Assembly (NCBI GenBank): GCA_050699715.1
Contig: JBOHFR010000009.1
Span: 28,941 to 92,940, forward strand
Direction of reading: 5' to 3'
Source: Pseudonocardiaceae bacterium
GTDB taxonomy: Bacteria; Actinomycetota; Actinomycetes; Mycobacteriales; Pseudonocardiaceae
Length of the DNA stretch: 64,000 bases
The position numbers and the translations under genes were made by a program. The notes below the pieces were generated by a model, which worked only from the letters and a program-made list of their open reading frames with translations, did not search any database and had not been told where the DNA came from. Position 1 is the first letter of the stretch. Every line of letters begins with the position of its first letter. Below, one piece after another: positions 1-25,463 of the stretch.

Positions 1-933
1 GGGCCACCAGATGATCCGCTGCGCGTTGCTCATGAGTGGCTGGTCAGCGACTCGTCCACTGTTGTGCAGTTGCGTACTGGTCGACGGGTTGGCGCAATGC
101 TCGCAGCTGGGCTAGAAAATCGAGTGATCGAGCTGCGTCACTTAGATGACACGGTCGGCGGAGGCGATCTTTTCCCTGTAGTGAGCAAAGAACTATCGGA
201 GGCTCAAGGGGTTGTCCGTTCTGCCAGCTATACCGAAAATGTTGGGCGGCGGTTGTTGGCTGTCGTCGGAGAGTTGGCCCAGCTTACTGGATGGGTGGCT
301 AGTGACGCGGGACGGTATGCTGAGGCACAGCAGGTCTATCTCGATGGGGTATCCGCCGCGCAGGGTGCGGGTAACCGTCCGCTCGGGGCTCAGCTTCTGT
401 CGTCGTTGAGCTACCAGATGGCCAACGTGGGAAAAGCGCATGACGCGGTTTTGCTGGCACGGTCTGCCGTCACCGGAGCCGGGGATGCCTCACCGGTTGT
501 CCGAGCCTTGCTGTTGGAACGGTTGGCCTGGGCGAGCGCCAGAAGTCGAGATCATGTGTGCGCACGGCGTGTCTTGGACGCGGTGGACGACGCATTCGAG
601 GGTCGGTCGCCGGGAATTGCTGAACCGGAATGGGTTTACTGGCTCGACAGAGGCGAGATCGATGTGATGGCTGGTCGATGCCTGATCGAACTCGGCAGCC
701 CACATGCGGCGGCACCGTTGCTCGCGCGGGCCATCAGCTCGTACAACGCCAATCGCGCCCGGGAAATAGCATTGTACCTGTCGTGGCTTGCGGAAGCATA
801 CGCAAGAGCAGGAACTATTGATGCTGCACGAGACGCGCTTACCCGGGCTTGTAAAGCCGCACAAGGAATAAACTCTGTCAGACTCCATTTGCGCATTAAC
901 CACGTTGGCATCCTGCTCCCCCACGAGGGCTAG
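1..933 (+). CDS. XRE-type regulator, C-terminal helical-repeat (TPR-like) region; 5' end lies off-window
   Basis: The frame of ORF 64..933 stays open back to base 1. The helical-repeat C-terminus has the same architecture as the complete HTH-TPR proteins at 30523..32076 and 52892..54454. Confidence 0.55.
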   Translation, partial: GPPDDPLRVAHEWLVSDSSTVVQLRTGRRVGAMLAAGLENRVIELRHLDDTVGGGDLFPVVSKELSEAQGVVRSASYTENVGRRLLAVVGELAQLTGWVASDAGRYAEAQQVYLDGVSAAQGAGNRPLGAQLLSSLSYQMANVGKAHDAVLLARSAVTGAGDASPVVRALLLERLAWASARSRDHVCARRVLDAVDDAFEGRSPGIAEPEWVYWLDRGEIDVMAGRCLIELGSPHAAAPLLARAISSYNANRAREIALYLSWLAEAYARAGTIDAARDALTRACKAAQGINSVRLHLRINHVGILLPHEG

Positions 934-935
934 CG

Positions 936-3900
936 TCAGGGCCGTTCGTCGATGAACTCGAGCCGCAGCTCGCGGACGCGCTCGTCGGACGAGAGCTGGT
1001 AGAGGCTCACGATCAGGTCGAACACCGTCGGCAAATACCGCTGCGCCGGCCGAAAGTCGGCATAGACCCGCCCTTGCAGCAGTGGCGGGAATGCGGACAC
1101 CGGGGTCCCATCCAGGAGTACCGGCAGGACGCTCTCCTTGTCGGCCTCGGAGCCGATCATCCGATTCCCGATGAGGTCACCCTCCGCGGCCGCGACGAAG
1201 GCGCCCATCGGTTGATCGTTGTTGTACTTGGTGCAGTAGAGCGGCGTGCCTATCACGATGACTCGGTCGGCGCTGGCGATAAGCTCCACGAAACGGGGCA
1301 CGCTCGCGCCGATGCGGGTGTTCTCCCACCGGTCAAGTACCACGGTGATCCCCGCCTTGCACAAGTCAGCGGCGAGTTCGTACTCCACCCAGCGCTCGTG
1401 GCGCTTGTCGCCCCAGGCGTAGCTGATGAAACAGTCCGGAGCCGGGATCCTCTCCTGCATGACATAGGTCTTGAGCCGGAACAACACCTGCTCGAACCGC
1501 GACCGCTGGCTAACTGCCTGGCACTGAGTGTCACGGTCGGCGGCTTGCGCCCGGGTGAGCTCGATCGGGGTATCAGTCGCAGGCAGCGTGACCTGCTGCC
1601 CGCATTGCGGGCAGAACGCGTGATGTGCGCGATCGGCGAGTCGCTCCCGCACCACGGCCCGGTTGAGCTGGTGACCGTTGGCGCACCACACCGCCTCGTA
1701 GCGACGGACGGTCAGGTCGCGGCGGGCCAGGAAGGTCTCGAACAGGCTCTGGAACAAGGTCCGAATCGGCGTCCCCACGGTGGCGCCGAAGTAAAGCACG
1801 AAGTCCAGCTCGCCTTCGCGCTCGGCTTCTTTGCGCAGGCCGCACACCAGACCGTCACCCACGACGTAACGGGCGTGGTCGCGCCACTGGTTGGTCCGGG
1901 TGAACGTGCGAGTGTACCCCAGCAGCACCACCAGGACGCGTAGACGTTCTCCACCGCACCGCTCACCGTGTACGCGGCCCCCTCGTCGATGGGCTGCTCA
2001 TCGGAAACCACCGGTTTCTTGAGGTTGATGAGCTCCGGAAAGACCAGATAAGAATGCACGGTGAGCGGATCGGTCTCGCGAAAGCAGACCGAGTGCGCCA
2101 GAAACATCACGATCGCCGAGTCGAGCAACACCTCGCGCTCCTCGGCCGACAGCTGCGCAAGCTCCGGGAAATGGTACCCGCTAGTGAGTACCTGCTGTTC
2201 CTCCAGCGCACCCAAACCTCTCGGGTTGCGCCGCGCTTCCAGGACTATCGACGCGGTGAGATTGTTCAGCAGCACCGGAGCGAGCAAGATCCGCGGTTCG
2301 CCGCGTGAGGTGTGCAGCTGCGCGAGATAACCATGGTTCGACAGGTGCCGCACCGCGGTCAGCAGCTCGTCGTCGGTGAACTCGGTAGCGGGATACTCCG
2401 GCTCCAGGCGGGCCCGGAGTTCGGCAGGGCTGAAAATTGCCTTCTCGGGGGTCGGCGCCTCCTTGAGTTCCCACACAAAGTTCTTGATGCGCTTGAAGGT
2501 CTGCGTGGTGACCGTCGTCGGCCGCTTGTCCCAGCGGATCGCCGCGCGCATCCGCTTGACCAGCTCGTCCAGACCATCGCCGCGCAGCGCGCTGGTGGCC
2601 ACGTACCCCGCGATGCCGCGCTCAGCGCAGAACGCCTCGATCTCCTCGGTGGCCAGCCGCGGCACACCGCGATCCCCGCGAGCCGCGACCAGGATGATCG
2701 GGCGATCCCGCCCGAGCTGGCGCAGCCAGTACTCGACGCCACGCAGCGGGTCGTCCCCGTGCGTCGGGTCGAACAGAACCAGGGCCAGGTCGGCGTCATC
2801 CAGGTACAGGGCATGGATCAGCCGATAGTCGGGCTGCCCGGCGAGGTCCCACAGGATGGCCTCGCGCTTCGTTCCGTCCGCTCCGGTACCGCCGAGCTCG
2901 TCGAGCAGCCAGAACTGCTGGCCGTGCGTCGAGGCGTGCTCAACGAACTCGCTGTGGGCAAGCCGCCACCCCAGTCCGGTCTTGCCCACACCTGACTCAC
3001 CGACGAGCACGATCTTCGCTGTCGTGTAGCTGACGCTGGGTGTCGCGGAATGCGCGAGCAGGCGGTCGACATCGAGCTCCCACAGGTGCACAACGGAACC
3101 GTAACGGGGCTTACTGGACCCGACCGCCGCCAAGATAGGCAGATGTGGGTGGAACGCGACGCTTTGCATCCAATCGCTTGAAGCGAATGCAGGCAGGACT
3201 GCCCTGCATCGTCCACTCTGGGTCTCCCAGAGTCGCACGGTGCCGTCAACACTATTCGACGCGAGCACCCGACCATCACCGGAAAACGAAAGAGCCAGCA
3301 CCTCCCTGGTGTGACCCTCAAGGATCGAGACGGTGCTGCCCGTGGCCACATCCCACAATCTGATGGTGCGATCAAAGCTCGCACTAGCCAGAATCCCACC
3401 TCCCGGATGGAAGGCGACAGACGTGACCGGCTGCGAATGCCCGTCGAGCGCGCGGAGGCGCTGTCCACTCGGGATCGCCCACAGCCTGACTGTCCCGTCG
3501 TAGGCGCCTGCCGTCGCGAGCATGCCACCTTCACCGTCGAAAACCATGCCGAGAATCAAGCTGCCGAGTTCGGTGATCCGGCATAGCATGGAGCCGGTGG
3601 ACAGTTCCCACAGCGTGACGACGTTCCGGTCGTTAACGCTCGCCAAGATGCAGCGGTACGGACTGAATGCGAGGTCGTGGCATTCACCGCTGGCGAGTTG
3701 GTCGCGCAACTTTCCGGTGTCCACGTTCCACAGGCTTGTGCCACCGCTGCCCGTAGTGGCGAGGATGCGCCCATCCGGATCAAAAGCCGCAGCGAACACG
3801 GACTCGCCCCGGTCGCCGATGGTACGCAGGCATACGCCGGAATCGGTGTCCCAAATGCGGACCGTGCCGTCCTTTGACGGTGTCGCGAGCAGGCGCCCGT

Positions 3901-3988
3901 CTGGCGACCAGCCGATGCGCCCGATCGTCTCTTCCTGGCTAGCCAAGGTGCGCAGCAGCCGCACACCGTCCGGCAGCTGCGTCGCCAT
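936..3988 (-). pseudogene. WD40-Roc-COR-TIR (ROCO-type NLR-like NTPase), split by a 1-nt frameshift near 1935
   Basis: ORFs 1712..3988 and 936..1931 read as one protein across '...GAVENVYAS|(L)VVLLGYTRTF...'. N-terminal WD40 blades ('GTVRIWD', 'TIRLWD', 'TVRLWE'). Roc GTPase G1 'GESGVGKTG' and G3 'WDLAGQ'. COR region. C-terminal TIR/SEFIR-like 'CFISYAWGD...DRVIVIGTPLY'. The tail of the upstream ORF after the junction is low-complexity out-of-frame sequence. Confidence 0.75.
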
Positions 3989-4273: not shown

Positions 4274-5137
4274 ATGGAGGAGTTGGACGCACCGCTGCGG
4301 GGATCGCTGGCCGTTGCCGCTGGGCTGGTGACCAAGAGTCAGCTGCGCGGTCCCGGATTCCGCAGGCTGTTTCCGGACATCTACCTGCCGGCGCACCTCG
4401 CTCCGACACTGGCCATGCGATCACGTGGCGCGCACCTGTTGGTCGCCGGGCATGGTGCGCTGGCTGGCTATTCCGCGGCGGAGCTGCTTGGCGCCCGGAT
4501 CGCGCCCCGCGACGCGGACGCCGAGGTGACGTCGGGCCGTGACGTGCGGGAGTGCCGCGGGCTGCGGGTGCACCGGGAGCGGCTTGCCGACGACGAGGTC
4601 GAGACGGTGGCCGGGCTGCTGGTCACCTCCACGTTTCGCACCGCATACGACCTGGCCCGCTGGTCGACCCTCGTGGAGGGCGTCGTCGCAGCCGACGCGC
4701 TGGGCCACCTCGGGCGGTTCGGGCCATCCGCGCTGCTCAAGATGGCAGATCGCTACCCCGGGGCGCGGTGGCGCGGCAGGGTTGCGCTGGTTGCCGAGCT
4801 GATGGATCCGCGCGCGGAGTCCGCGATGGAAACCCGGTGCCGGGTGTCCCTCATGCTGCGCGGGCTGCCCCGCCCCGAGCTGCAGTACCGGGTGCGCGAC
4901 GAGCTCGGAGAGCACGTGGCCCGGCTGGACATGGCCTACCCGAGCGCGCGAGCCGGCATCGAGTTCGACGGAGAACACCACCAGAACACCCCGACATTCC
5001 GGGCCGATCTGGCCAGGCACAACCGGCTCGCCGCCCTGGGCTGGACTGTGCTGCGCGCCAGCGCCCCCGACGTGCTGCGCAACCCGGACCGCTTCGCCGC
5101 CCAGGTCCGCGCCATACTCCGCCAGCGCGCCGCCTGA
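4274..5137 (+). CDS. DUF559-like endonuclease-domain protein (AbiEi-like N-terminus)
   Basis: N-terminus 'GLVTKSQLRGPGFRRLFPDIYLP' and C-terminus 'DMAYPSARAGIEFDGEHH...LAALGWTVLR' match the pattern of actinobacterial DUF559 proteins. Confidence 0.6.
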   Translation: MEELDAPLRGSLAVAAGLVTKSQLRGPGFRRLFPDIYLPAHLAPTLAMRSRGAHLLVAGHGALAGYSAAELLGARIAPRDADAEVTSGRDVRECRGLRVHRERLADDEVETVAGLLVTSTFRTAYDLARWSTLVEGVVAADALGHLGRFGPSALLKMADRYPGARWRGRVALVAELMDPRAESAMETRCRVSLMLRGLPRPELQYRVRDELGEHVARLDMAYPSARAGIEFDGEHHQNTPTFRADLARHNRLAALGWTVLRASAPDVLRNPDRFAAQVRAILRQRAA

Positions 5138-9814: not shown

Positions 9815-10309
9815 TTGCTGCGCCTGACCGTCGAGCAGGCCGGCGCGGCGGTCGGCTTCATCGTGGACTGGGCCAGCTTCATGCGGCTGCGGGCGCAACG
9901 GCCAGTGATTCCCACCGAGCCCGACGATTTCGACATCAGCGCCGAGCTCGACCACACCGACGTCGACCTCGCTGACCTGCTGGGCGAGCACGCCCGCTTC
10001 AGCATCGGCCTACACGTGCCCGACTGCCGGCTGTCCTGGGACCTGGGCGAGGACGGCTACCTGTCCACCCTCTGGCTGCTCGCGCCCGACTCCTGGGCCT
10101 GCGTCCACGACACCACCGTCCGCCAAGCCGGAGCACGCCGACTGTTCGACGAAGTGCTCAGCGCCTACACCTGGTGGCAGCACGCCGGGCGCCGCGACCG
10201 CGACCAGTACGGCGTCACCATCACCGTCGAGGGCCAATCCGTGTGGCTCGATAACCCAACACGGCCCATCACACCACCAGCGACCAAAGCATGTCCCATA
10301 AATCACTGA
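9815..10309 (+). CDS. Hypothetical protein
   Basis: 164-aa ORF with host-like codon bias. No recognisable motif. Start uncertain. Confidence 0.4.
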   Translation: MLRLTVEQAGAAVGFIVDWASFMRLRAQRPVIPTEPDDFDISAELDHTDVDLADLLGEHARFSIGLHVPDCRLSWDLGEDGYLSTLWLLAPDSWACVHDTTVRQAGARRLFDEVLSAYTWWQHAGRRDRDQYGVTITVEGQSVWLDNPTRPITPPATKACPINH

Positions 10310-10462: not shown

Positions 10463-13400
10463 TCACGGGCATGGAGGGCGGTACGCCAGGTCGGGCAGGA
10501 AGCGGTCCCATTCGCTCTTGCTGATCGCGGGCCATGCGATGGCGCAGATTCGGGCGGCAACACTGTCGACGTTGGCGTCCCACAGTCGCGCGGTGTTGTC
10601 ACCGCTGGCGGTGGCCATAGTGCGCCCGTTAGGACTGAAGGCTACCGAGAAGACGGCGTTGGTGTGACCGGTGAGGGAGCCCAGTGACGTGGGATGGTAG
10701 GGGTTGCGGACATCCCACAGCCGCGTGGTGTGGTCGTCGCTGGCGGTGGCCACGGTGTGCCCGTCCGGACTGAACGCCACCGAACGGACGATGTTGGTGT
10801 GGCCGGTGAGGGTGCCCAGCGGGCTAGGACGGTGGAGGTCACGCAGATCCCACAACCGCGCGGTGTTGTCGAAGCTGCCGGTGGCCACGGTGTGCCCGTC
10901 GGGACTGAACGCCACGGAGTCGACGCCGTTGGTGTGGCCGGTGAGGACGCCCAACGGGCTAGGACGGTGGGCGTCGCGGACATCCCACAACCGCGCGGTA
11001 TGGTCGACGCTGCCGGTGGCCAGGGTGTGCCCATCGGGGCTGAAAGCCACCGCGTAGACGGTGTTGGTGTGGCCGGTGAGGATGCTCAGGGAGCCCGGAT
11101 GGTAAGGGTCGCGGACATCCCACAACCGCGCGGTATGGTCGACGCTAGCGGTGGCCACGGTGTGCCCGTCAGGACTGAACGCCACCGAGCGGACGTAGCC
11201 GGTGTGGCCGGTGAGGGTGCCCAGCGGGCTGGGACGGTGGGGGTCGCTGACATTCCACAGTCGTGCGGTGTGGTCGTCGCTAGCGGTGGCCACGGTGTGC
11301 CCATCGGGGCTGAACGCTACCGAGTCGACGCCGTTGGTGTGGCCGGTGAGGATGCCCAGCGGGCTGGGACGGTGGGGGTCACGCACATCCCACAATCGCG
11401 CGGTGCTGTCGACGCTGGCGGTGGCCAGGGTGTCCCCGTCGGGACTGAAGGCCACCGAGCGGACGATGTTGGTGTGGCCAACCACGATGGGTCCAGGAAG
11501 GTCCCACAGCCGCGCGGTGTTGTCACCGCTGGCGGTGGCCACGGTGTGCCCGTCGGGGCTGAAAGCCACCGCGTAGACGGTGTTGGTGTGGCCGGTGAGG
11601 GTGCTCAGCGGGCTGGGACGGTGGGGGTCGCTGACATCCCACAGTCGTGCGGTGTTGTCGTAGCCGCCGGTGGCGAGGGTGTGCCCATCGGGGCTGAAGG
11701 CCACTGACAAGACGTAGCTAGTGTGGCCGGTGAGGGTGCTCAGCGGGCTGGGACGGTGGGGGTCGCTGACATCCCACAGTCGTGCGGTGTTGTCGAAGCT
11801 GCCGGTGGCCAGGGTGTGCCCGTCGAAGCTGAAGGCCACCGAGCGGACGGTGTTGGTATGGCCGGTGAGGATGCTCAGGGGCGTGGGGTGGTGGAGGTCG
11901 CTGACATCCCACAACCGCGCGGTGTTATCGACGCTGCCAGTGGCCACGGTCTGCCCGTCGGGGCTAAAGGCCACCGAGTAGACCGCGTTGGAGTGGCCGG
12001 TGAGGGTGCTCAGGGGCGTGGGATGGTGGGGGTCGCTGACATTCCACAGTCGCGCGGTGTTATCGACGCTGCCAGTGGCCACGGTGCGCCCGTCCGGGCT
12101 AAAAGCCACCGAGTAGACCGCGTTGGAGTGGCCGGTGAGAATGCCCAGCGGGCTGGGACGGTGCGGGTCACGCACATCCCACAACCGCACAGTGCTGTCG
12201 ACGCTGCCAGTGGCCACGGTGCGCCCGTCCGGGCTAAAAGCCACCGAGCGGACCGCGTTGGTGTGGCCGGTGAGAATGCCCAGCGGGCTGGGACGGTGCG
12301 GGTCACGCACATCCCACAGTCGCGCGGTGTTATCGACGCTGCCAGTGGCCACGGTGCGCCCATCCGGGCTAAAAGCCACCGAGTAGACGGGGCTGGTGTG
12401 GCCGGTGAGTTGGGTGGCGTAGGGGGTGGCGAAGGTATTAAGCAGACTGCTGCGGGCTTCTGTGGTGGGGGCAAGCTGGTAGGCGGCCAGACCAAGTTGG
12501 GCGGCCAGGGCCGGGTTTGCTGCACGTAGCTCCATGGCCTGTCCCACGACTTGCCGTGACACCGCGACATCCCGTTGTCGCACTGCGGCACGTTGCTGGG
12601 CGAAGGCGAAACCAGAGGCAACCACAGCAAGGACCAGCAGGACTGACAGGACAGTCACCGCACGTCCCCGCCGGTAGCGATCCCGGCGGATGCTGAGCCG
12701 CAGGAAGGCCCGCGCCGTCGGGCTGAGCTCGACGCGATCGGTGACCAGCTCATGGGCCTGGAGGTGGGCGCCGGTGTCGGCTACCGTGGCGGCAAGTTGC
12801 CCACGTTCCCACAACCGGCCCGATGGTCGCCCCTCGTCGTCCCATTCGGCGGCGGCCTGCTCGAGCAACCGGCGCGCCCGCAACGCCGACACATTGGCGG
12901 TGATCGCCTGGGCCAGCGGTGCCCAGGCGGACAAAAACGCCTCGTGGGCCACCCCCACGACCACGCCGCTGTGGTCCGTATCGGTGATCAGCAGCCGTCG
13001 TGTGACGAAAGGTTCCAGTTCGGCGACCACGGGATCGGGCAGCTCACCGCGGTTGAGCCGCCATCGGGTGGGACGGCCCTGTTCATCGACGGTGACCAGC
13101 CGAAGCAGCCCGGCAATGACCTGCTCGCGACCACAACCCGCAGTGTCGATCGCGGCGGTGAGGGCTTCGTCGGCCTGACGGGTCAGTGCACCTTGCACCC
13201 CGCCGAGCTCGTCGTACCGTGCGGTGGACAGCTGTCCCCCACGGCGGACTCCCTTGGCGAGCTGGGCCAGAGTGAACGCCAGCAGCGGGAGTGCCTCTCC
13301 GGTGTCGGTGTCCGCGACCAGCCGGGCGACTAGGTGGTCCTCAACGTCGATGCCGACCAACCGGGCCGGCCCCTCGATCACCAGGTGCAGCGCCTCGCGG

Positions 13401-14500
13401 TGCAGCGGCCGCAAAGGGTAGATGCTCGTGGCCAAGGTGGCCAGGTGCGAGTCACCGAGCAGGCGGTCGAGGAACTCCGGGCGCACGGTACCCACGACCC
13501 GCACCGGACCGGCCAGTGCCGGACGCAGCAGCGCGGCGAACCGAGCCCGCGCGGCTGGCGCCGTCTGAGTGAGCAGCTCCTCGAACTGGTCCACCACGAC
13601 CAGCAGGTGTCGCAACGGACCGCCCGGGTTCGCCAGCAGCAGCTCGTCGGCAACTCCCACCAGACCGCAGGTGGCAAGCTGATGGCCTACCTGGGCAGGC
13701 GTCCAATCCAGGTCGCTGCGCCGTGCGGCGACGGTCAGTTCCCGGGCCAATGCCGCGATGGGATCGGCTCCCGGCAGGATGGGCGGCAGTGTCAGCCAAG
13801 CCGGCTCCTCGGCCATCACATGCAGCAGCCCGGCCCGGACCAGCGAGGACTTGCCGCACCCTGAGGGACCGACGACGAGCAATACGGCCGCTTTGGCCTG
13901 CTCGGCGGAGGATCGCAGCAGCTCAGCGAGTTCCCCCGTCTCGTCGTCTCGGCCGAAGAACACCTGATGCCGCCCGACGTCGAAGGGCCGCAGCCCCGGG
14001 AACGGGGACCGATCGTCCGGCCAACCGAAACCCCCGGCGGCATCGACCCGGCGCAACGCCTCGCCAAGCGCGCCAGGGACAGCTGCCGGATTCCGGGTCA
14101 GGTCAAGACGCTGCACATCGGCCAGCAGCGGATGGACAACTCCCGGCTCGGCCAGTATCGGAATGACCCGAGTTCCCCGCGACTGAGCGATCGCCACTTC
14201 AGCGGTGCACCAGGTGGACACCAGATAAGCTGAGGTCAGGACACACACCACCGCGTCGGCTGACCGCAACCGCTCGTGGAGCCGCACGCGCCACTGCTCT
14301 CCGGCAGCGATTCCATCCCGCAGATCCGCAGCCAGGAACACCTCGTGGCGACCGTCCTTGAGCCACTGGAGCACCTGGCGGGCCAGAGCTACGTCCTCGC
14401 TCGCGTAGCTGACGAATACCTCGGCCACTGCCCCTCCCCCGCCCAGTGTAAACAGACACCAGGCCATGCCTCCACGCAGTGAGACGTCGGTGAGTGGCAC
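10463..14500 (-). CDS. TIR-STAND NTPase-TM-WD40(x14) NLR-like protein
   Basis: TIR 'VFVSYASEDV...WCTAEV'. Walker A 'GPSGCGKSS'. Walker B-like 'LLVVVDQFEEL'. One hydrophobic helix 'AVTVLSVLLVLAVVASGFAFA'. Then 14 WD40 units. The start may be the internal Met at 14467. Confidence 0.9.
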   Translation of the reverse strand: MPLTDVSLRGGMAWCLFTLGGGGAVAEVFVSYASEDVALARQVLQWLKDGRHEVFLAADLRDGIAAGEQWRVRLHERLRSADAVVCVLTSAYLVSTWCTAEVAIAQSRGTRVIPILAEPGVVHPLLADVQRLDLTRNPAAVPGALGEALRRVDAAGGFGWPDDRSPFPGLRPFDVGRHQVFFGRDDETGELAELLRSSAEQAKAAVLLVVGPSGCGKSSLVRAGLLHVMAEEPAWLTLPPILPGADPIAALARELTVAARRSDLDWTPAQVGHQLATCGLVGVADELLLANPGGPLRHLLVVVDQFEELLTQTAPAARARFAALLRPALAGPVRVVGTVRPEFLDRLLGDSHLATLATSIYPLRPLHREALHLVIEGPARLVGIDVEDHLVARLVADTDTGEALPLLAFTLAQLAKGVRRGGQLSTARYDELGGVQGALTRQADEALTAAIDTAGCGREQVIAGLLRLVTVDEQGRPTRWRLNRGELPDPVVAELEPFVTRRLLITDTDHSGVVVGVAHEAFLSAWAPLAQAITANVSALRARRLLEQAAAEWDDEGRPSGRLWERGQLAATVADTGAHLQAHELVTDRVELSPTARAFLRLSIRRDRYRRGRAVTVLSVLLVLAVVASGFAFAQQRAAVRQRDVAVSRQVVGQAMELRAANPALAAQLGLAAYQLAPTTEARSSLLNTFATPYATQLTGHTSPVYSVAFSPDGRTVATGSVDNTARLWDVRDPHRPSPLGILTGHTNAVRSVAFSPDGRTVATGSVDSTVRLWDVRDPHRPSPLGILTGHSNAVYSVAFSPDGRTVATGSVDNTARLWNVSDPHHPTPLSTLTGHSNAVYSVAFSPDGQTVATGSVDNTARLWDVSDLHHPTPLSILTGHTNTVRSVAFSFDGHTLATGSFDNTARLWDVSDPHRPSPLSTLTGHTSYVLSVAFSPDGHTLATGGYDNTARLWDVSDPHRPSPLSTLTGHTNTVYAVAFSPDGHTVATASGDNTARLWDLPGPIVVGHTNIVRSVAFSPDGDTLATASVDSTARLWDVRDPHRPSPLGILTGHTNGVDSVAFSPDGHTVATASDDHTARLWNVSDPHRPSPLGTLTGHTGYVRSVAFSPDGHTVATASVDHTARLWDVRDPYHPGSLSILTGHTNTVYAVAFSPDGHTLATGSVDHTARLWDVRDAHRPSPLGVLTGHTNGVDSVAFSPDGHTVATGSFDNTARLWDLRDLHRPSPLGTLTGHTNIVRSVAFSPDGHTVATASDDHTTRLWDVRNPYHPTSLGSLTGHTNAVFSVAFSPNGRTMATASGDNTARLWDANVDSVAARICAIAWPAISKSEWDRFLPDLAYRPPCP
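10570..12410 (-). repeat. Tandem ~132-nt coding repeats (14 near-identical WD40 blades)
   Basis: Unit 'GHTxxVxSVAFSPDG(H/R)T(V/L)AT(G/A)SxDxTARLWDVxDPHRPSPLxxLT' recurs 14 times. The mirrored repeat is also visible in the antisense shadow ORFs. Confidence 0.85.
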
Positions 14501-14679: not shown

Positions 14680-15318
14680 ATGCGCAAACTTCCGCACGTC
14701 ACGTTGCTGTTCTGGATTGTGGAGATCGTCGCCGTTACGCTGGGGGAAACCTCCGGAGACTTGTTGGGAATCACCCTCAAGATCGGCTACGTCGCCACCG
14801 CGTTGATCTTTCTCGCGTTTTTTCTGGTCGTCGTGGTAGCCTAGGTCACAGCCACACGGTTCCATTCGGCCCTATTCTGGGCGGTGGTCCTGGGTACCAG
14901 CATGGTCGGTACCGATCTCGGATTTCTTGAACCGCAGGTTCGGTCACGGCAGCGCCCAACACGGAATCGGTTACGCGTGGGGTGCGGTCATCCTCACCAG
15001 CATCTTGGCGATCGTCTTTCTGGTGTGGTGGCGCACGGGGCAGACCTACAACGTGAAGAACATTGCCACCCGCAAGACCGGCCTGGGGTTCCGCAACGCC
15101 TTTTTCATCATCGCCGGGATCATACTGGTGATCGTGACCGCGCACTACCTGACCAGCATCAACGGCATGGTGCTGTTCTGGCTGACGTTCATCCTGACCC
15201 GCCCGTTGGCGGCAGCCGGGGCGACTCGTTGACCAAACCGGTGGACGAGGCAGCCTGGGCTGGGGCACGGTGGGATGTCCGCTGCCACCCGCTGGAACTG
15301 CTTGCGTTCCCCGCATGA
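14680..15318 (+). pseudogene. Decayed membrane protein (COG4705-like repeat membrane protein)
   Basis: 'MRKLPHVTLLFWIVEIVAVTLGETSGD' ends at a TAG (14842). Homologous-looking segments continue in two other frames ('WAVVLGTSMVGTDL', 'LFWLTFILTRP', 'GDSLTKPVDE'). Confidence 0.5.
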
Positions 15319-15336
15319 CCAGGTAACCTAGCGGTC

Positions 15337-15492
15337 GTGATCACTTTCGGCATCATCTTGCTCATCGTGGGGCTCCTGATCCATAGCCCGGTTCTGTGGA
15401 CCATCGGGATCATTCTGGCAGTGATCGGGGCGATCCTGGCCCTGCTCGGCGCCGCCGGGCGCGCCGTGTTCGGCCGACGACATTACTGGTGA
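15337..15492 (+). CDS. Small two-helix membrane protein (51 aa, GTG start)
   Basis: 'VITFGIILLIVGLLIHSPVLWTIGIILAVIGAILALLGAAGRAVFGRRHYW' resembles small membrane proteins widespread in actinomycetes. Below the ORF-track length cutoff. Confidence 0.45.
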   Translation: MITFGIILLIVGLLIHSPVLWTIGIILAVIGAILALLGAAGRAVFGRRHYW

Positions 15493-15495
15493 CAC

Positions 15496-15972
15496 TCACG
15501 AGGTGCGCGGTTGGAGCAGTGTCTTGATCATGCCGCCGTAGACACCGCTCAGCGAGATGGTGCCGCCGCGACGGACCAGCTCGATCGCCGTGTACAACGC
15601 CGCGAGCCGGTCGATGCCGACGGTCGTCATCAGCTTTTCGGCGACCCCGTCAGGCAGCAGTGAGGTTAGTTGGTGAGCGAGTTTGCCGACCGGGGAGCCG
15701 TGGGCTTCCATGCCCACCGCGTCGATCACGGCCTCCGGGCCCCGCCCGCCGGTGAGACCACGCGCGATCTCGGTAAGGTCTTTGCCGTAGGTTTCCAGAT
15801 CGATTGTTCTCACGCCGTGGTCCTGAGCGCGGCGCAGCCGCTCGGGCACCAGATCGATGCCGATCACGTTGTCAATGCCGTGGTGTTGAGCGATGCGGGT
15901 GCACATGTCCCCGATCGGGCCCAGGCCCAGCACCACCAGGCTGCCGCTGGGCGGGACATCAGCGTATGCCAC
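15496..15972 (-). pseudogene. Zn-dependent alcohol/formaldehyde dehydrogenase fragment (cofactor-binding domain only)
   Basis: Rossmann 'VVLGLGPIGDM' and 'GGTISLSGVYGG' are present. The N-terminal catalytic domain and the C-terminal end are missing. Confidence 0.6.
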
Positions 15973-16828
15973 GGCTTGCCAGGCAGTACTCGGTGATGCT
16001 CGCCGACGAGTACGGGCGCGCGAAGTTCTCCGGCAACGTGAACCCGAGCATCCGCCCCAGCCCGATGGCCATGTCTGAATAGCCAGAGAAGTCGAAGTAC
16101 AGCTGCAACGTGTATCCGATTGCCCCGAGCCAGGCGTTCGCGGTGGTCATCTGGTCGGCTGGGGTGGCGAAGCAGGCGTCCACCATAGGCGCGAGTGAGT
16201 CCGCGATCACCACCTTCTTGGTCAGCCCGAGGGCGAAGCGTGGGAATCCGGTGGCGATGTCGTCCAACCGGTGGCTGCATGGCTGGGTGAGCTGATCCGC
16301 AATCTCCCGGTAGCGCACGATTGGTCCCGCGACCAGCTGGGGGAACATCGCGATGTAGGCGACGAATGGGATCTTCTTGCGCAGTGCCCGGCGCTCGCCA
16401 CGGTAGATGTCCACCACGTAGGAGATGTGGTGGAACGTGTAGAAGGAGATTCCGATCGGCAAGGTAAGCGAGACGGTGGGCAGATCAAGCCCAGTGAACG
16501 ACGCCAGCCTGGCGGCCTGCGCGCTGGCGAAACCAGCGTACTTCCAGATGACGAGGACCGCGACGTCGAAGACAATAACGCCGATCAGGATCCGCCGACG
16601 CCGCTTCGGTTCGGGCTCCCCGCCGTCGGGTTGCACCGCCGGACCCACCACGTAATTGACGACCATGCAGGCCAGCAGCAAGAGTGTCGCCGGGCCCGCA
16701 CCCACCGCGTAGAAGACCAGGCTGGCGGCCGCCACGATGCCGTTGCGCCAGCTGCGGGGCGTGACCAACACGGCCGTGAGAACAGCCGGCAGGAAATACC
16801 ACAGGAACATCGGGCTGGCGAAGGACAT
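15959..16828 (-). pseudogene. MBOAT-family O-acyltransferase (AlgI/DltB-like), 3'-truncated
   Basis: 'FYTFHHISYVVDIYRG', 'FPQLVAGPIVRY', 'YSDMAIGLGRMLGF'. Homology stops at '...SITEY' about where 'WRRWH' is expected, and runs straight into the ADH fragment. Confidence 0.65.
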
Positions 16829-21905: not shown

Positions 21906-23255
21906 TTACGCTTCGGCGGTGGGTCGGACTAGCAGCGCCTGACCAGCAGCGGATGTGCCGGTCAGTAGGGCCTGCTCTGCGGCGGGTTCCAGACCGGCCC
22001 GCAGGCCGAGAGAGATGATCTCCTCCGTGCAGATACCCTTCTGGAAAGTCCCCTTGGCCGCACTCGACCAGTAGCCGTCCTGGTGGGAAGACCAGTTCGC
22101 TGAGGCAGCTCTTGGGTCGATGTCAGCGGGTGATCGGGTGACGACAAGCAAATAACCACCCGGACGTACGAACTGGGCGGCGTGCTGCAGGGCTTGGATG
22201 CGTTGCCAGGGGTCGGGCAGGACGTTGAGCACGAAGATGTTGGCGACCAAGTCATACTGACGATCTTGCTTGGTGGTCCAGCCGAAGCCTGGGTGCGGGT
22301 CCCAGCCATCCGCATCCAATCCAGCAGCCCGATAATGGTCGACATCGCTGCCGCGCCCGCAACCGTGGTCCAGGACACTAGCAATGCCAAGCCGGGGTAC
22401 GAAGACATCGACGACGGTACGGGCGAACGGGGACGGACGAACGCGGCTCATCGCGGTCTTATGCGGTTGACACTCGGAACGGGTGAACAGGGCGCGGTCA
22501 GTCGGCTCGGGCAGCAGCGCGAACAGGGCTTCTCGATCCTCCACGGCGACGGTGTCGAGCGTGACCGGGACGTCCATGAGAATGCCGGAATGGTCGGTGA
22601 ATGCCTGCTCGCCAGCGCGAGTGGAATGATCGTATCGGACGTTGACCATCGGAAGCAGGTGACCGGGAACCAGAGCGAGGTCGCACCGAAACCGGCTGCG
22701 CAGGCCTGACCGTTGACGCTCAATAGTGAACTGCGGAGTCTCGGTGGCGGTAGCGTCGGCGAGGCCGTTATCAACCAATAACTCGGCGAACGGTTTGCGA
22801 TCTATGGAACTGTTGAAGTTGCTGGGCCGTCCGTTGTTGAGGCCGTCAACCGGACGAGGGGCGAGGTTGAAGTCTCCGCAGGCGAGTATAGGCCGTCCGT
22901 TTTCGACGGCAATAATCTCCTGGAATCGGCAGAGCTGGCGGCGACGAGAGGTAGCCGAGCGGCAGTCGAGGTAGGTGTTGTACGCCACTAGCCAGCCTAG
23001 TTCCAGGCGTTGGACGAAACTTTCTAGTCGGGAAACCGGTGGGATGGGGACCTGTTCTGCGCTCCAGCAGAAAAGGTCCCCATCTCCGCCGACTGACCTG
23101 TAGGCGGCCAAGTTGACCGCAGTACGGTTCACTGGCTTCCACGGCTCCTGGGCGACCAGCACATCCACGTGGTGGTAATGCAGCCAAGCTGTGAGTTTTG
23201 CTCGTGCGGCGGGGTTGCCAAGGCGCTTGTTGAGGTTTATTGAGGCTAGGCGCAC
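21906..23255 (-). CDS. Fusion protein: EEP (ExoIII/APE1-like endonuclease/exonuclease/phosphatase) domain + SAM-dependent methyltransferase domain
   Basis: EEP motifs 'INLNKR', 'VLVAQE', 'GDFNLAP', 'FTDHSGILMDV'. C-terminal MTase motif I 'VLDHGCGRGSD' and 'VRPGGYLLVV'. Confidence 0.7.
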   Translation of the reverse strand: MRLASINLNKRLGNPAARAKLTAWLHYHHVDVLVAQEPWKPVNRTAVNLAAYRSVGGDGDLFCWSAEQVPIPPVSRLESFVQRLELGWLVAYNTYLDCRSATSRRRQLCRFQEIIAVENGRPILACGDFNLAPRPVDGLNNGRPSNFNSSIDRKPFAELLVDNGLADATATETPQFTIERQRSGLRSRFRCDLALVPGHLLPMVNVRYDHSTRAGEQAFTDHSGILMDVPVTLDTVAVEDREALFALLPEPTDRALFTRSECQPHKTAMSRVRPSPFARTVVDVFVPRLGIASVLDHGCGRGSDVDHYRAAGLDADGWDPHPGFGWTTKQDRQYDLVANIFVLNVLPDPWQRIQALQHAAQFVRPGGYLLVVTRSPADIDPRAASANWSSHQDGYWSSAAKGTFQKGICTEEIISLGLRAGLEPAAEQALLTGTSAAGQALLVRPTAEA

Positions 23256-23271
23256 AAAATCTCCTCGTCAA

Positions 23272-24273
23272 CTACAGAGTAACAGCGGTTCCCGATCGGA
23301 CTTCCTCGTCGAATGCGTTCCACAACAAGTTGAGTGGATGCGTCGGCGTATATTGCTCCCGCTCGCCCTTGCGGGCGAACACGCCGGTGACCAGTTCAAG
23401 CATTGGATCGAAGTCTTCGGCGAACGCAACGAGTCGAAAGTCAGAACCGCCGGGGAGTCGCCCTTCGACGGCCGCTCGCCCGATAGCCTTAGAGACGATC
23501 ATGCATCCGTATATCATTCCAGAGCGTAGTAGCGCCAGGCCATAGTAGATGTCGTCGATAGTAGTCGCGATAGTCAATTTGTTGCGAAAGTCACTACCGT
23601 ACCAACGCGAAAGAAATTCCACAATCACACCGCCGGACGGGATCACGAGCGGGGCCGACGGCAGTTTTTGTCGCCCGACCGCATTTGCTGCAAGCTCTCG
23701 CCGGGGCAAGTTCGTCAACAGTGCAAGTCCTTCACGATGCCATTCGAGGAAATCGTACTGGCCAAGAAATTCGAGACTTCCAACCGCTGAGGCGAACCCG
23801 CCGCACATCAGGTCAACCTCCTTGGTGTCCAGTCGAGTGAACGTATCTTTGGTGCGCACGTGCACTATTTTAAGTTCGATCTCACGGGACTGGAATTCAT
23901 TACTAACACGTTGCCATACCCGACTTAAGAAATCCAGGGTGAACTCAGTGGTTCCTACCGAAATTGTCTGCCCCAGACGGCGCCGGGCGCCGTCTATTGA
24001 TGATTTCCATGCGGTCAGGGTAGTACGGGCCAATTCGACGAACTGCCATCCGGACGGTGTGAACAGGAATTGCTTGCCACGTCCCTGCTTGATTACCAAC
24101 TGCTCTCCGCACATTTTCCGGAAGCTGCGGTTGAGTGTATCCAGCTGCTTTTGCACGCTGGACTGCTCTCGGCCTAGCACCCGGGCCGCGCTGAGAGCCG
24201 AACCGGTCTCGGCCACCAGTACCAGGGTGCGCAGCTGATCGAATGTGGTCTCCAACAGTCCCGCGCCGACCAT
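23272..24273 (-). CDS. LysR-family transcriptional regulator
   Basis: 'FDQLRTLVLVAETGSALSAARVLGREQSSVQKQLDTL' HTH. Start taken at 'MVGAGLLE'. Visibly AT-richer than its surroundings. 16 nt upstream of the nuclease-MTase gene and divergent from the 24503+ operon. Confidence 0.8.
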   Translation of the reverse strand: MVGAGLLETTFDQLRTLVLVAETGSALSAARVLGREQSSVQKQLDTLNRSFRKMCGEQLVIKQGRGKQFLFTPSGWQFVELARTTLTAWKSSIDGARRRLGQTISVGTTEFTLDFLSRVWQRVSNEFQSREIELKIVHVRTKDTFTRLDTKEVDLMCGGFASAVGSLEFLGQYDFLEWHREGLALLTNLPRRELAANAVGRQKLPSAPLVIPSGGVIVEFLSRWYGSDFRNKLTIATTIDDIYYGLALLRSGMIYGCMIVSKAIGRAAVEGRLPGGSDFRLVAFAEDFDPMLELVTGVFARKGEREQYTPTHPLNLLWNAFDEEVRSGTAVTL

Positions 24274-24502
24274 CTCGACCCCGCCAAGGTGCGGCGTGCT
24301 CGTCAACCTATCGTCCTTTACCAACTCCGCACCGCCTTCTTTTCCGGTGACAAAATATTCGATCAAACATTTGAAGTGCACCAGATCACAGTTCCAGTTG
24401 GAGCCACCTCTAGATGTTCGACAGCACATCTAGACGCCTGAAACTTGATCAGGGAATATTTGACCATGGGCTCACCAACCTACGCGGACGGAGGTGGAGC
24501 GG
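24274..24502. promoter_or_regulatory. Divergent promoter/operator region between the LysR gene and the Dcd-like operon
   Basis: Inferred only from the divergent LysR-target arrangement. No operator identified. Confidence 0.35.
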
Positions 24503-25462: not shown

Positions 25463-25463
25463 A

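What the first reader, a model, noticed from the sequence alone, without database searches (positions are those of the whole stretch)
10463..14500. TIR-STAND-WD40 protein whose 14 blades are near-identical, with variation confined to a few positions per blade
Seen: the 14 WD40 units (about 132 nt each) are so similar that the nucleotide repeat is obvious on both strands. Differences cluster at x in 'GH(T/S)xxVx(S/A)VAF' and 'A(T)(G/A)(S/G)xDx(T)'. Established: the same pattern is described for fungal NLR-like HET-E/NWD proteins: highly internally conserved repeats, concerted evolution, and hypervariable ligand-contact positions. It is interpreted there as rapid recognition-surface diversification. 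Inference: this is a bacterial NLR-like immune or cell-death sensor with a TIR (conserved 'WCTAEV' Glu) as a NADase-type effector. A hydrophobic helix sits between the NTPase and the propellers, which is odd for a cytosolic sensor.
Basis: partly seen in the sequence, partly recalled or inferred. Interest (0 to 1): 0.65.

Follow-up and report, generated by a model that had tools for sequence, protein, structure and literature searches.

The report
Membrane-spanning TIR–STAND protein with 14 WD40 blades
An actinomycete gene encodes an NLR-like protein (NAD-cleaving TIR domain, STAND ATPase switch, 14 very similar WD40 blades) whose conserved membrane-spanning helix probably puts the variable blades outside the cell, so it may sense signals at the cell surface rather than in the cytoplasm.

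Summary
The ORF 10463-14500 (-) is real. It encodes 1345 aa: TIR_2, nSTAND1 NTPase, one 21-residue hydrophobic helix, then 14 WD40 units (7+7) and a Cys-pair tail.

The units are 135 nt, not 132. They are similar but not near-identical: 82% nt identity, 77% aa identity, dS about 0.42. Variation is strongly clustered. Columns 5, 7, 23 and 25 hold 33% of all non-consensus residues. These columns match the four positively selected HET-E codons. Their omega is about 1.3, against 0.13-0.19 for the scaffold. Fourteen blades is the family norm, so the count is not an artefact.

The NLR-like reading holds: the catalytic Glu (E101) aligns with AbTir and BtpA, and the Walker motifs are intact.

The "odd" helix is the main result. 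It is present in 116/116 close and 62/65 distant relatives. It has a strong positive-inside bias. The part after it carries a conserved Cys pair and an even-Cys bias that the part before it lacks. I therefore read this as a single-pass receptor: TIR and NTPase inside, variable propellers outside.

Distant relatives keep the nSTAND1-TM-WD40 chassis but carry other N-terminal modules, mostly HTH. Function is inferred; nothing was tested experimentally.

The parts
10463..14500 (-). Whole ORF, 1345 aa (TIR - nSTAND1 - TM helix - 14 WD40 - Cys-pair tail). The start codon is uncertain: GTG 14500, ATG 14467 (M12) or GTG 14428 (V25).
   Evidence: Relatives begin MARVFVSH, which matches query V25-AEVFVSY.
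14090..14419 (-). TIR domain (Pfam TIR_2), aa 28-137
   Evidence: E 3.9e-22, 79.4 bits against a cutoff of 28. A profile of it hits the bacterial TIR structures 4C7M/4LZP, 7UXR and 7UWG.
14198..14200 (-). Codon of Glu101 in the motif S-T-W-C-T-A-E-V, the putative catalytic glutamate of the NADase site
   Evidence: It aligns with the WxxxE Glu of AbTir (7UWG), BtpA (4C7M) and 7UXR. The motif is present in 114/120 relatives. Position.
12821..14005 (-). nSTAND1 NTPase module (PF20703), aa 166-560
   Evidence: E 1.6e-85, 288.5 bits against a cutoff of 27.1. AF2 gives a P-loop domain, a helical domain and a winged-helix-like domain. The best fold match is the plant TIR-NLR RPP1 core.
13847..13870 (-). 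Walker A / P-loop GPSGCGKS, aa 211-218
   Evidence: Invariant in alignment A3.
13577..13600 (-). Walker B region VVVDQFEE, aa 301-308
   Evidence: D304, Q305, E307 and E308 are invariant in A3.
12599..12661 (-). Predicted single transmembrane segment AVTVLSVLLVLAVVASGFAFA, aa 614-634. It lies inside a 65-residue continuous helix (aa 594-658).
   Evidence: Kyte-Doolittle 19-residue window score 2.56; it is the only such segment in the protein. N-flank net charge is +6 and C-flank +3. Conserved in 116/116 close and 62/65 distant relatives. AF2 helix.
12404..12598 (-). Juxtamembrane helical linker between the TM segment and the first blade, aa 635-699
   Evidence: AF2 helices at aa 594-658, 663-676 and 680-689. 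tblastn matches of distant relatives extend to residues 690-699.
11480..12403 (-). WD40 units 1-7 (first seven-bladed propeller). Unit 7 is the short 38-aa junction unit.
10577..11479 (-). WD40 units 8-14 (second seven-bladed propeller)
   Evidence: 2YMU tandem 7+7 propeller, E 2e-60; 7BIG single propeller, TMt 0.96
10466..10576 (-). C-terminal tail with the conserved cysteine pair C1319 and C1344 (motif IC...EW..(F/Y)LP..Y..PC)
   Evidence: These are the only two Cys after the TM segment. A Cys pair spaced 23-27 residues is present in 138/154 family members.

Best explanation
The gene encodes a single-pass membrane protein of the NLR/STAND type.

Shown from sequence:
- An N-terminal TIR domain with the catalytic-type Glu (E101).
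- An nSTAND1 P-loop NTPase with intact Walker A and B motifs.
- One 21-residue hydrophobic helix.
- Two seven-bladed WD40 propellers built from 14 highly similar 45-residue units.
- A C-terminal tail with a conserved Cys pair.

Inferred topology: TIR and NTPase lie in the cytoplasm, where NAD+ and ATP are. The propellers lie outside the membrane.

Inferred mechanism:
1. A ligand binds the top faces of the blades. The residues there (columns 4, 5, 7, 23, 25) differ from blade to blade.
2. Binding causes clustering or a rearrangement that is passed through the long TM helix.
3. This permits nucleotide-dependent oligomerisation of the nSTAND1 modules on the inner face of the membrane.
4. Oligomerisation brings TIR domains together into active NADase sites.
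5. The result is NAD+ depletion or signal-nucleotide production, and then growth arrest or death of the hyphal compartment.

The blades stay similar for two reasons: a strongly constrained family-wide scaffold, and some within-gene homogenisation or recent unit duplication. The ligand-facing residues are free to diverge.
For: Architecture.

TIR active site:
- Glu101 aligns with the WxxxE Glu of AbTir (7UWG), BtpA (4C7M/4LZP) and 7UXR.
- It is conserved in 114/120 relatives.

NTPase:
- Walker A and B are invariant.
- The best fold match of aa 1-660 is the TIR-NB-ARC core of plant RPP1.

Membrane span:
- A single segment with Kyte-Doolittle score 2.56.
- Uncharged core of median 21 residues, at a fixed distance of about 390-400 aa from the P-loop.
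- Present in 116/116 close relatives, 62/65 distant genome loci and 88/88 full-length representatives.
- Mean net charge is +5.7 on the N-flank and +1.8 on the C-flank. The N-flank is more positive in 116/116 close relatives.
- AF2 models it inside a 65-residue helix.

Exported C-terminal part:
- Exactly two Cys after the TM segment in the query, 25 residues apart in a conserved tail.
- The same pair is present in 138/154 relatives.
- Cys parity after the TM segment is 73 even to 15 odd (p = 3e-10, sequences treated as independent). Before the TM segment it is 41 to 47.

Propellers:
- 14 four-stranded blades, pLDDT 90.5.
- Closest solved structure is the Nostoc 14-blade highly repetitive propeller 2YMU.

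Variable surface:
- Clustering of variation.
- Omega 1.26 at the variable sites against 0.13-0.19 at the scaffold.
- The same columns are variable in 47 relatives, Spearman 0.82.
- They fall in the d-a loop and b-c turn.
- They are equivalent to the HET-E selected codons.

Within-gene homogenisation: 9-14 of 14 units find their best match inside the gene.
Against: - No dedicated TM or topology predictor was available, and there is no experiment.
- AF2 does not model a membrane, and I had no coordinates to check the Cys-Cys distance.
- A TM helix between the NTPase and the sensor rules out the usual STAND autoinhibition by direct sensor-NOD contact. The proposed outside-in activation therefore has no precedent that I could find.
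- Omega of 1.26 on four codons is not significantly above 1. Relaxed constraint explains it equally well.
- Top-face variability is a general property of WD40 repeats.
- No PADLOC system matches, apart from weak TIR hits.
- There is no conserved gene neighbourhood. The flanking genes are mostly housekeeping.
- Most distant nSTAND1-TM-WD40 relatives carry an HTH instead of a death effector. The chassis is therefore a general signalling device, and an immune role for the TIR version is an inference.
- The Cys parity statistic ignores the relatedness of the sequences.
Confidence: 0.55

Rival explanations
1. One reading: a cytosolic NLR-like sensor. The hydrophobic helix is only a peripheral membrane tether or an oligomerisation helix. 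The WD40 propellers stay in the cytoplasm, where they recognise intracellular (for example phage) proteins and release the NTPase and TIR, as in Avs or bNACHT proteins.
For: - All experimentally studied bacterial STAND defence proteins and Apaf-1 are cytosolic. Apaf-1-like WD40 sensors are listed among prokaryotic defence-associated STANDs (PMC13581612).
- The propellers resemble Apaf-1.
- Classical STAND autoinhibition needs the sensor and the NOD in the same compartment.
Against: - The segment is 21 residues with no charged or strongly polar residue (two Ser and one Thr), and it scores 2.56 on Kyte-Doolittle.
- It has an Arg-rich N-flank and is conserved in length and position at down to 31-36% identity. 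These are features of a true span, not of an amphipathic tether.
- A single span must put the two ends on opposite sides of the membrane.
- The conserved Cys pair and the even-Cys bias occur only after the helix.
Confidence: 0.2
2. A transmembrane environmental or developmental signalling receptor, not an immune or death device. The nSTAND1-TM-WD40 chassis senses an extracytoplasmic cue (cell-wall state, a neighbour, a nutrient polymer). In this paralogue the TIR acts as a regulated second-messenger generator or scaffold, just as relatives couple the same chassis to an HTH DNA-binding output.
For: - About 38 of 62 distant genome-locus relatives carry an HTH_31-type N-terminus. Others carry trypsin, kinase+BTAD or DUF4062 modules.
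- There is no defence-island context and no PADLOC match.
- The family is very large: 33,170 clusters at E<=1e-3. MAGs carry several paralogues each.
Against: - The TIR keeps the NADase-type Glu.
- Swapping of TIR, trypsin and other effector-type heads on one STAND chassis is typical of conflict systems (PMC8195603).
- Blade-to-blade diversification of ligand-contact residues resembles the fungal allorecognition NLRs.
- A second TIR-bearing NLR-like gene lies 6.5 kb away.
Confidence: 0.2
3. The repeat array is an assembly artefact (a collapsed or chimeric repeat), or the gene is a decaying pseudogene.
For: - Close relatives from short-read MAGs have 6-11 units, with the 38-aa junction unit at varying positions, and many are truncated.
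- Several MAG loci have disrupted frames.
Against: - The query frame is open over 4 kb.
- It has exactly 7 units, then the conserved short junction unit, then 7 units.
- Its length of 1345 aa sits inside the family's interquartile range of 1345-1377 aa.
- AF2 closes two complete propellers at pLDDT above 90.
- Units differ enough for unambiguous assembly: 75-93% nt identity, longest exact repeat 75 nt.
Confidence: 0.03

Closest known systems
Fungal HNWD NLRs (HET-E, HET-D, HET-R of Podospora anserina)
   Same: - N-terminal death effector, then a STAND NTPase, then C-terminal WD40 repeats of high internal conservation.
- The variable residues are two pairs flanking a conserved residue on the top face. 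HET-E codons 7/9 and 25/27 (PMC1805685) correspond to columns 5/7 and 23/25 here.
   Different: - The NTPase is nSTAND1, not NACHT, and the effector is TIR, not HET.
- Repeats are 82% identical at nt level, not up to 100%.
- Omega is only about 1.3.
- The unit is 45 aa, not 42.
- There is a membrane-spanning helix between the NTPase and the repeats, and the protein is bacterial.
Prokaryotic 'Highly-Repetitive' WD40 proteins (Hu et al. 2017, PMC5587647) and the Nostoc punctiforme 14-blade propeller 2YMU
   Same: - Internal identity of at least 0.7.
- 14 blades forming two propellers.
- A conserved scaffold with diverse hotspot sites, as that paper describes for the class.
- 2YMU is the best sequence match (E 2e-213) and the best fold match.
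   Different: In the passages my term search of that paper returned ('transmembrane' 1 hit, in the reference list; 'STAND' and 'TIR' 0 hits), it treats the propellers generically and does not describe the TIR-nSTAND1-TM context or a membrane topology.
nSTAND1 conflict-system NTPases (Kaur et al. 2021, PMC8195603; Pfam PF20703)
   Same: The NTPase module matches PF20703 at 288 bits. Variable effector heads (TIR, trypsin and others) and repeat sensors are as described for these systems.
   Different: I found no mention of the conserved TM helix after the NTPase, or of an exported WD40 sensor, in that paper or in the other papers I searched.
Plant TIR-NLRs (RPP1, ROQ1) and bacterial antiviral STANDs (Avs, bNACHT)
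   Same: - The order is effector, NTPase, repeat sensor.
- RPP1's TIR-NB-ARC core is the best fold match to aa 1-660.
- The expected logic is ligand-induced oligomerisation that assembles TIR NADase sites.
   Different: - Those proteins are cytosolic and use LRR or TPR sensors.
- The fold match has a low TM-score (0.23-0.28).
- No PADLOC Avs or bNACHT model matches.
Toll-like receptors and actinobacterial receptor kinases with an external beta-propeller (M. tuberculosis PknD); ToxR/CadC-type membrane-tethered regulators (comparison from my own knowledge)
   Same: The logic of topology is the same: a repeat or propeller ectodomain, a single TM helix, and a cytoplasmic output (TIR in TLRs, kinase in PknD, HTH in ToxR-like proteins and in the HTH-bearing relatives seen).
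   Different: - There is no homology of the ectodomain to LRR or NHL domains.
- Here a STAND NTPase switch sits between the output and the membrane.
- Orientation is N-in/C-out, so the TIR is N-terminal.
- This is an analogy only; nothing was tested.
Apaf-1
   Same: A STAND NTPase followed by two WD40 propellers. It is among the top sequence and fold matches for the propeller region.
   Different: Apaf-1 has a CARD effector, an NB-ARC NTPase, 7+8 diverged blades, and is cytosolic.

Membership tests
TIR domain, NADase-competent type | Match to a TIR profile above the curated threshold | tested here: met
   PF13676 TIR_2, 79.4 bits against a cutoff of 28, aa 28-137
TIR domain, NADase-competent type | Catalytic glutamate in the WxxxE position | tested here: met
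   E101 aligns with the Glu of AbTir 7UWG, BtpA 4C7M/4LZP and 7UXR in a profile search (E 7e-4 to 8e-3). The motif is present in 114/120 relatives.
TIR domain, NADase-competent type | NAD+ cleavage activity | not testable with these tools
   Needs an enzyme assay
STAND NTPase, nSTAND1 clade (PF20703) | Profile match above the curated threshold | tested here: met
   288.5 bits against a cutoff of 27.1, covering model positions 1-378 of 379
STAND NTPase, nSTAND1 clade (PF20703) | Intact Walker A and Walker B motifs | tested here: met
   GPSGCGKS at 211 and VVVDQFEE at 301. Both are invariant in 30 sequences.
STAND NTPase, nSTAND1 clade (PF20703) | P-loop domain followed by helical and winged-helix domains | tested here: inconclusive
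   The AF2 secondary structure is consistent with this, but pLDDT is 72.8. Foldseek TM-scores are low (0.2-0.3). The top hits are RPP1, PAB2304 and Cdc6/ORC.
Highly-Repetitive WD40 proteins (Hu 2017) | Internal repeat identity of at least 0.7 | tested here: met
   Mean pairwise aa identity is 0.77 over 45 columns and 0.79 over the 31-column core. Their exact metric (eight contiguous repeats) was not reproduced.
Highly-Repetitive WD40 proteins (Hu 2017) | Conserved scaffold with diverse top-face hotspot sites | tested here: met
Fungal HNWD / 'highly internally conserved repeat' NLRs | NACHT NTPase and HET (or related fungal) effector | tested here: not met
   The NTPase region (aa 166-560) is assigned to nSTAND1 (1.6e-85) among the 25 best of 59 Pfam families shown, where neither NACHT nor HET appears. 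Separate scans of aa 1-187 and of ~aa 517-698 found neither.
Fungal HNWD / 'highly internally conserved repeat' NLRs | Near-identical repeats maintained by concerted evolution | tested here: inconclusive
   nt identity is 75-93% and dS 0.42, so the repeats are not near-identical. However, 9-14 of 14 units have their best match inside the same gene rather than in a relative.
Fungal HNWD / 'highly internally conserved repeat' NLRs | Positive selection at the four top-face codons | tested here: inconclusive
   The positions are the same. Omega is 1.26 against 0.13-0.19 for the scaffold. This comes from pairwise counting on 4 codons, with no site model and no control for recombination.
Fungal HNWD / 'highly internally conserved repeat' NLRs | Repeat-number polymorphism among strains | not testable with these tools
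   No conspecific sequence is available. The closest relatives are 86-90% identical fragments. MAG unit counts are unreliable.
Known anti-phage defence systems (PADLOC-DB v2) | Match to a system protein model | tested here: not met
   Only weak TIR-domain hits (ThsB 1.9e-5) and P-loop hits. The NCBIfam Thoeris ThcB4 hit is 38.5 bits against a cutoff of 220.
Single-pass (bitopic) membrane receptor, N-in/C-out | One hydrophobic segment of about 20 residues with a positive-inside charge bias, conserved in the family | tested here: met
Single-pass (bitopic) membrane receptor, N-in/C-out | Independent signature of an exported C-terminal part | tested here: met
   A conserved Cys pair is present in 138/154 relatives. 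Cys parity is 73 even to 15 odd after the TM segment and 41 to 47 before it. This evidence is indirect.
Single-pass (bitopic) membrane receptor, N-in/C-out | Experimentally determined topology | not testable with these tools
   Needs reporter fusions or accessibility assays

The most novel reading that the evidence does not exclude
This is one member of a very large, undescribed class of transmembrane NLR-like receptors in actinomycetes and a few other phyla. The class has about 3,900 clusters at 50% identity at E<=1e-30 and about 33,000 at E<=1e-3.

In this class a STAND NTPase switch sits on the cytoplasmic face. It is driven through a single TM helix by an exported, disulfide-capped double WD40 propeller. 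In some lineages the blades of that propeller are kept near-uniform apart from diversified ligand-contact residues.

With TIR as the output, it would be a bacterial functional analogue of a Toll-like receptor. It would sense phage particles, competitors' proteins or non-kin hyphae at the cell surface and answer with NAD+ destruction.
Probability: 0.35. Interest if true: 0.8.

Novelty: new variant of a known kind. Interest (0 to 1): 0.58.

Why it matters
Every studied STAND/NLR receptor, in bacteria, fungi, plants and animals, senses its ligand in the cytosol, and the sensor directly restrains the NTPase.

A conserved membrane span between the NTPase and the sensor would mean two things. The NLR switch can be driven from outside the cell. 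Multicellular bacteria may also combine the two arms of eukaryotic innate immunity in one polypeptide: surface receptors with a TIR output, and NLR oligomerisation.

The family is large and has swappable outputs (TIR, HTH, protease, kinase). The question is therefore testable in Streptomyces genetics. The highly repetitive, top-face-diversified propellers are a natural scaffold for studying how binding specificity is generated.

If the helix turns out not to span the membrane, the gene is an ordinary new member of the known TIR-STAND-WD40 class.

Tried and rejected
- Exact-sequence look-up of the protein found no record, so source organism and strain comparisons were not possible.
- A single-sequence PDB search with the TIR gave only weak TIRAP/MyD88 hits (E about 0.07-0.9), which are uninformative about catalysis. 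It was replaced by a profile search.
- PADLOC and NCBIfam gave no system-level assignment.
- Synteny: tblastn of six neighbouring proteins against 80 related loci found no conserved partner. The one exception is an orf164-like ORF beside the disrupted gene of L008.
- Using unit counts in relatives as a proxy for copy-number polymorphism was rejected. MAG proteins have 0-11 units, with the junction unit at shifting positions, which is what collapsed short-read assemblies give. Properly assembled relatives cluster at 1345-1377 aa.
- The assembly-artefact and pseudogene readings were rejected (see rivals).
- Foldseek of the N-terminal model gave low TM-scores and mostly generic AAA+/ORC hits. I use it only as weak support.
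- Literature searches for a described TM helix between a STAND NTPase and WD40 repeats found nothing relevant. This is absence from the searchable library, not proof of novelty.
- I could not obtain model coordinates. The C1319-C1344 distance and a 3D map of the variable residues were therefore not computed. The mapping rests on the DSSP strand pattern, on the HET-E equivalence, and on my knowledge of WDR5 hotspot positions.
- Promoters and terminators were not examined.

Full report
**What is there**

The window has one long ORF at 10463-14500 on the minus strand, 1345 aa, with the GC3 bias of a real gene. Pfam gives three modules:
- TIR_2 at aa 28-137 (E 3.9e-22).
- The STAND NTPase family nSTAND1 (PF20703) at aa 166-560 (E 1.6e-85).
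- 14 WD40 repeats.

Between the NTPase and the repeats lies a single strongly hydrophobic segment at aa 614-634, AVTVLSVLLVLAVVASGFAFA. The start codon is uncertain. Relatives begin MARVFVSH, which corresponds to a GTG at residue 25 of the ORF.

**The repeats**

The GH dipeptides mark 14 units. Twelve units are 45 aa (135 nt, not 132). Unit 7 is 38 aa. Unit 14 runs into a C-terminal tail. Tandem Repeats Finder sees the array at periods 135, 270 and 405 with 80-87% matches.

The blades are similar but not near-identical:
- Mean pairwise identity is 82% at nt level (75-93%) and 77% at aa level.
- Synonymous divergence between units is about 0.42.
- The longest exact repeat is 75 nt.
- Adjacent pairs 1/2, 3/4 and 5/6 are the most alike, at 89-93%.

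Variation is strongly uneven. Twenty of 45 columns are invariant. Columns 5, 7, 23 and 25 (G of GH = column 1) hold 33% of all non-consensus residues in 9% of the cells. None of 200,000 uniform redistributions of the non-consensus residues reached this. At these four codons pN 0.47 is about equal to pS 0.41, giving omega of about 1.26. The scaffold has omega 0.13-0.19. The nonsynonymous rate there is therefore about ten times higher, but with four codons and pairwise counting this is not proof of positive selection.

Other columns (16, 18, 21, 33, 39, 42, 43) vary mostly between two states. "Confined to a few positions" is therefore too strong.

**Where the variable sites sit**

An AlphaFold2 model of aa 575-1345 has mean pLDDT 90.5 and gives 14 four-stranded blades. 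In each unit, strand a covers columns 6-11, b covers 17-22, c covers 27-31 and d covers 39-44.

Columns 4-5 and 7 therefore lie in the d-a loop and at the start of strand a. Columns 23 and 25 flank the conserved Asp of the b-c turn. By established WD40 knowledge these loops form the top, ligand-binding face. From my own knowledge, the same positions are Y131, F133 and F149 of the WDR5 peptide pocket.

Paoletti et al. found codons 7, 9, 25 and 27 of the HET-E repeat under positive selection, in pairs around purified codons 8 and 26 (PMC1805685). That is the same geometry as 5/7 around V6 and 23/25 around D24 here.

The same columns (plus column 4) are the most variable within 47 close relatives, Spearman 0.82. 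Hu et al. 2017 already described this pattern for prokaryotic "Highly-Repetitive" WD40 proteins with internal identity of at least 0.7 (PMC5587647). The closest solved structure is the 14-blade highly repetitive propeller of Nostoc, 2YMU (E 2e-213 by sequence; best fold match).

**Is the array an artefact?**

Probably not. The array is 7 units, then a short junction unit, then 7 units. The 38-aa junction recurs in relatives down to 33-35% identity. AF2 closes two complete propellers. In a search of 1.8 billion representatives, full-length relatives have a median length of 1358 aa with an interquartile range of 1345-1377. Fourteen blades is therefore the norm.

The closest relatives come from short-read MAGs. 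They have 0-11 units with the junction at shifting positions, which is what collapsed assemblies give. For that reason I could not test copy-number variation between strains.

Units of the query nearly always find their best match inside the query (9-14 of 14) rather than in a relative. This points to some within-gene homogenisation or recent duplication. However, mean within-gene identity (0.79) is only slightly above between-gene identity (0.70-0.76). Much of the similarity therefore reflects a strongly constrained family-wide consensus blade.

Among full-length representatives, internal identity is much lower (median 0.38, maximum 0.60). That set is biased against highly repetitive genes, which break assemblies.

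**TIR and NTPase**

A profile of the TIR domain hits four bacterial TIR-domain structures: BtpA (4C7M/4LZP), 7UXR and AbTir (7UWG). The query's W97-x3-E101 aligns with their WxxxE motif; that they are NADases whose catalytic residue is this Glu is from my own knowledge. The motif is present in 114/120 relatives. Walker A (GPSGCGKS, residue 211) and Walker B (VVVDQFEE, residue 301) are intact and invariant.

The AF2 model of aa 1-660 is of moderate quality (pLDDT 72.8). Its best PDB match is the TIR-NB-ARC core of the plant NLR RPP1, followed by PAB2304 and Cdc6/ORC-type ATPases, all at low TM-scores.

PADLOC has no matching defence system.

**The hydrophobic helix**

This is the part that changes the picture.
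- The segment is the only one in the protein that scores above 1.6 on a Kyte-Doolittle 19-residue window; it scores 2.56.
- It is 21 residues long and has no charged residue.
- It is preceded by FLRLSIRRDRYRRGR (net +6) and followed by QQRAAVRQRDVAVSR (net +3).
- It is present in 116/116 close relatives, 62/65 intact ORFs from distant genome loci (31-36% identity; Streptomyces, Nonomuraea, Actinomadura, Kutzneria, even Chloroflexi and Acidimicrobiia MAGs), and 88/88 full-length representatives.
- Its core is always 19-24 residues, about 390-400 residues after the P-loop.
- The flank charges average +5.7 (N) against +1.8 (C).
- AF2 places it within one continuous 65-residue helix, aa 594-658.

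By the positive-inside rule the N-terminal TIR and NTPase are cytoplasmic. That fits their need for NAD+ and ATP. The propellers are then outside.

An independent signature agrees with this. After the helix the query has exactly two cysteines, C1319 and C1344, 25 residues apart in a conserved tail. A pair with this spacing is present in 138 of 154 family members. Cys counts after the helix are even in 73 and odd in 15 of the 88 full-length representatives. Before the helix they are 41 even and 47 odd (binomial p = 3e-10 against 0.59, ignoring relatedness). From my own knowledge, paired cysteines are typical of exported proteins in actinobacteria.

I found no description of this membrane span in the papers that name nSTAND1 or survey bacterial STANDs, or in wider searches.

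**Family context**

The close family (58-90% identity) is annotated "TIR domain-containing protein". It comes almost entirely from uncultured Pseudonocardiaceae/Pseudonocardiales, plus one Nonomuraea isolate, and there are several paralogues per MAG.

More distant relatives keep the nSTAND1-TM-linker-WD40 chassis but carry other N-terminal modules:
- An HTH_31 type in about 38 of 62.
- Trypsin_2 in 4.
- BTAD plus protein kinase.
- DUF4062.
- An unassigned head.

The chassis is therefore a general transmembrane signalling device with exchangeable cytoplasmic outputs. The TIR version is the one with a death-type effector.

The gene has no conserved neighbours. In the window it sits in a core chromosomal region among hemL-like, thioredoxin-like, GntR, cysS, ispD, radA and glyA genes, next to some gene fragments. 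A second TIR-bearing NLR-like gene (WD40-Roc GTPase...TIR) lies at 936-3988.

**Most likely mechanism**

Steps 1-3 are shown from sequence; steps 4-6 are inferred.
1. The architecture is as described above.
2. There is a single conserved hydrophobic span with N-in bias.
3. The blade top faces are diversified.
4. The propellers are extracytoplasmic and capped by a disulfide.
5. Ligand binding outside causes clustering or a helix rearrangement. This lets the nSTAND1 modules oligomerise with nucleotide on the inner face.
6. The TIR domains assemble into NADase sites, which leads to NAD+ loss or signal nucleotides and to growth arrest or death.

The main weakness is that the usual STAND autoinhibition, in which the sensor packs on the NOD, cannot operate across a membrane. 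Step 5 therefore has no precedent.

The rivals are a cytosolic NLR with a mere tether (0.2), a non-immune signalling receptor (0.2) and an artefact (0.03).

**Verdict**

The NLR-like reading is sound. The fungal analogy holds for the positions of the variable sites, but not for the degree of homogenisation.

The conserved membrane span and the exported sensor make it a new variant that is worth an experiment.

Noticed in passing
window 936-3988 (-): A second NLR-like gene. ORF 1712-3988 encodes a 7-blade WD40 propeller (about 35% identical to the focal blades) followed by a Roc/Ras GTPase. Its 3' end overlaps ORF 936-1931, which carries a TIR_2 domain. The tail of the 758-aa ORF looks out of frame. 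This is probably one WD40-Roc-(COR)-TIR gene with a frameshift near 1930-1990, or two overlapping genes.
   Followed up: partly
window 64-933 (+) and 4274-5137 (+): Flanking that second gene are a TPR-like 289-aa protein and a DUF559/REase_MTES_1575 endonuclease-like protein. Together with the two TIR genes, this end of the window looks like a loose cluster of conflict-type genes interrupted by housekeeping genes.
   Followed up: no
window 14927-16828: Three apparent gene fragments lie directly upstream of the focal gene: a piece of a DUF347 membrane protein, the C-terminal part of a zinc-type alcohol dehydrogenase, and part of an MBOAT acyltransferase. The last two overlap. This suggests a decayed or rearranged stretch.
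   Followed up: partly
window 9815-10309 (+): A 164-aa ORF with good GC3 and no Pfam match lies convergent with the 3' end of the focal gene. Its only homologue in the 80 related loci lies just downstream of the (disrupted) TIR-nSTAND1 gene of L008 (36% identity).
   Followed up: partly
loci L006, L008, L009, L011, L013, L016, L017, L029: In these MAG loci the tblastn match to aa 1-699 spans the whole region, but the reading frame I extended from the start of the match is much shorter (27-585 aa). These are frameshifts or stops, so either pseudogenes or assembly errors, in a family with several paralogues per genome.
   Followed up: no
window 14428-14500 (-): The 24 residues upstream of the likely start (V25) include a peptide, WCL..LGG, that is also found in frame upstream of the TIR in L001. 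Either translation starts earlier than in most relatives, or the 5' leader is conserved.
   Followed up: no
protein P0001 (closest relative, 86% identical in the search with aa 1-699; 91% to aa 1-660 in alignment A3): It lacks about 32 residues of the juxtamembrane linker directly after the hydrophobic segment (…ASGFAFAQ|LGLAAYQL…), and the record ends soon after.
   Followed up: no
window 22000-26000: GC content drops to 0.59-0.62, against 0.66-0.72 elsewhere. This was not examined.
   Followed up: no
loci L033, L047, L048, L057, L069: A group of Streptomyces nSTAND1-TM-WD40 relatives shares an N-terminal motif (…GGGSVFQAGRD.HVR.GDEGRR…CPYP) with no Pfam match. It may be an undescribed head domain.
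   Followed up: no
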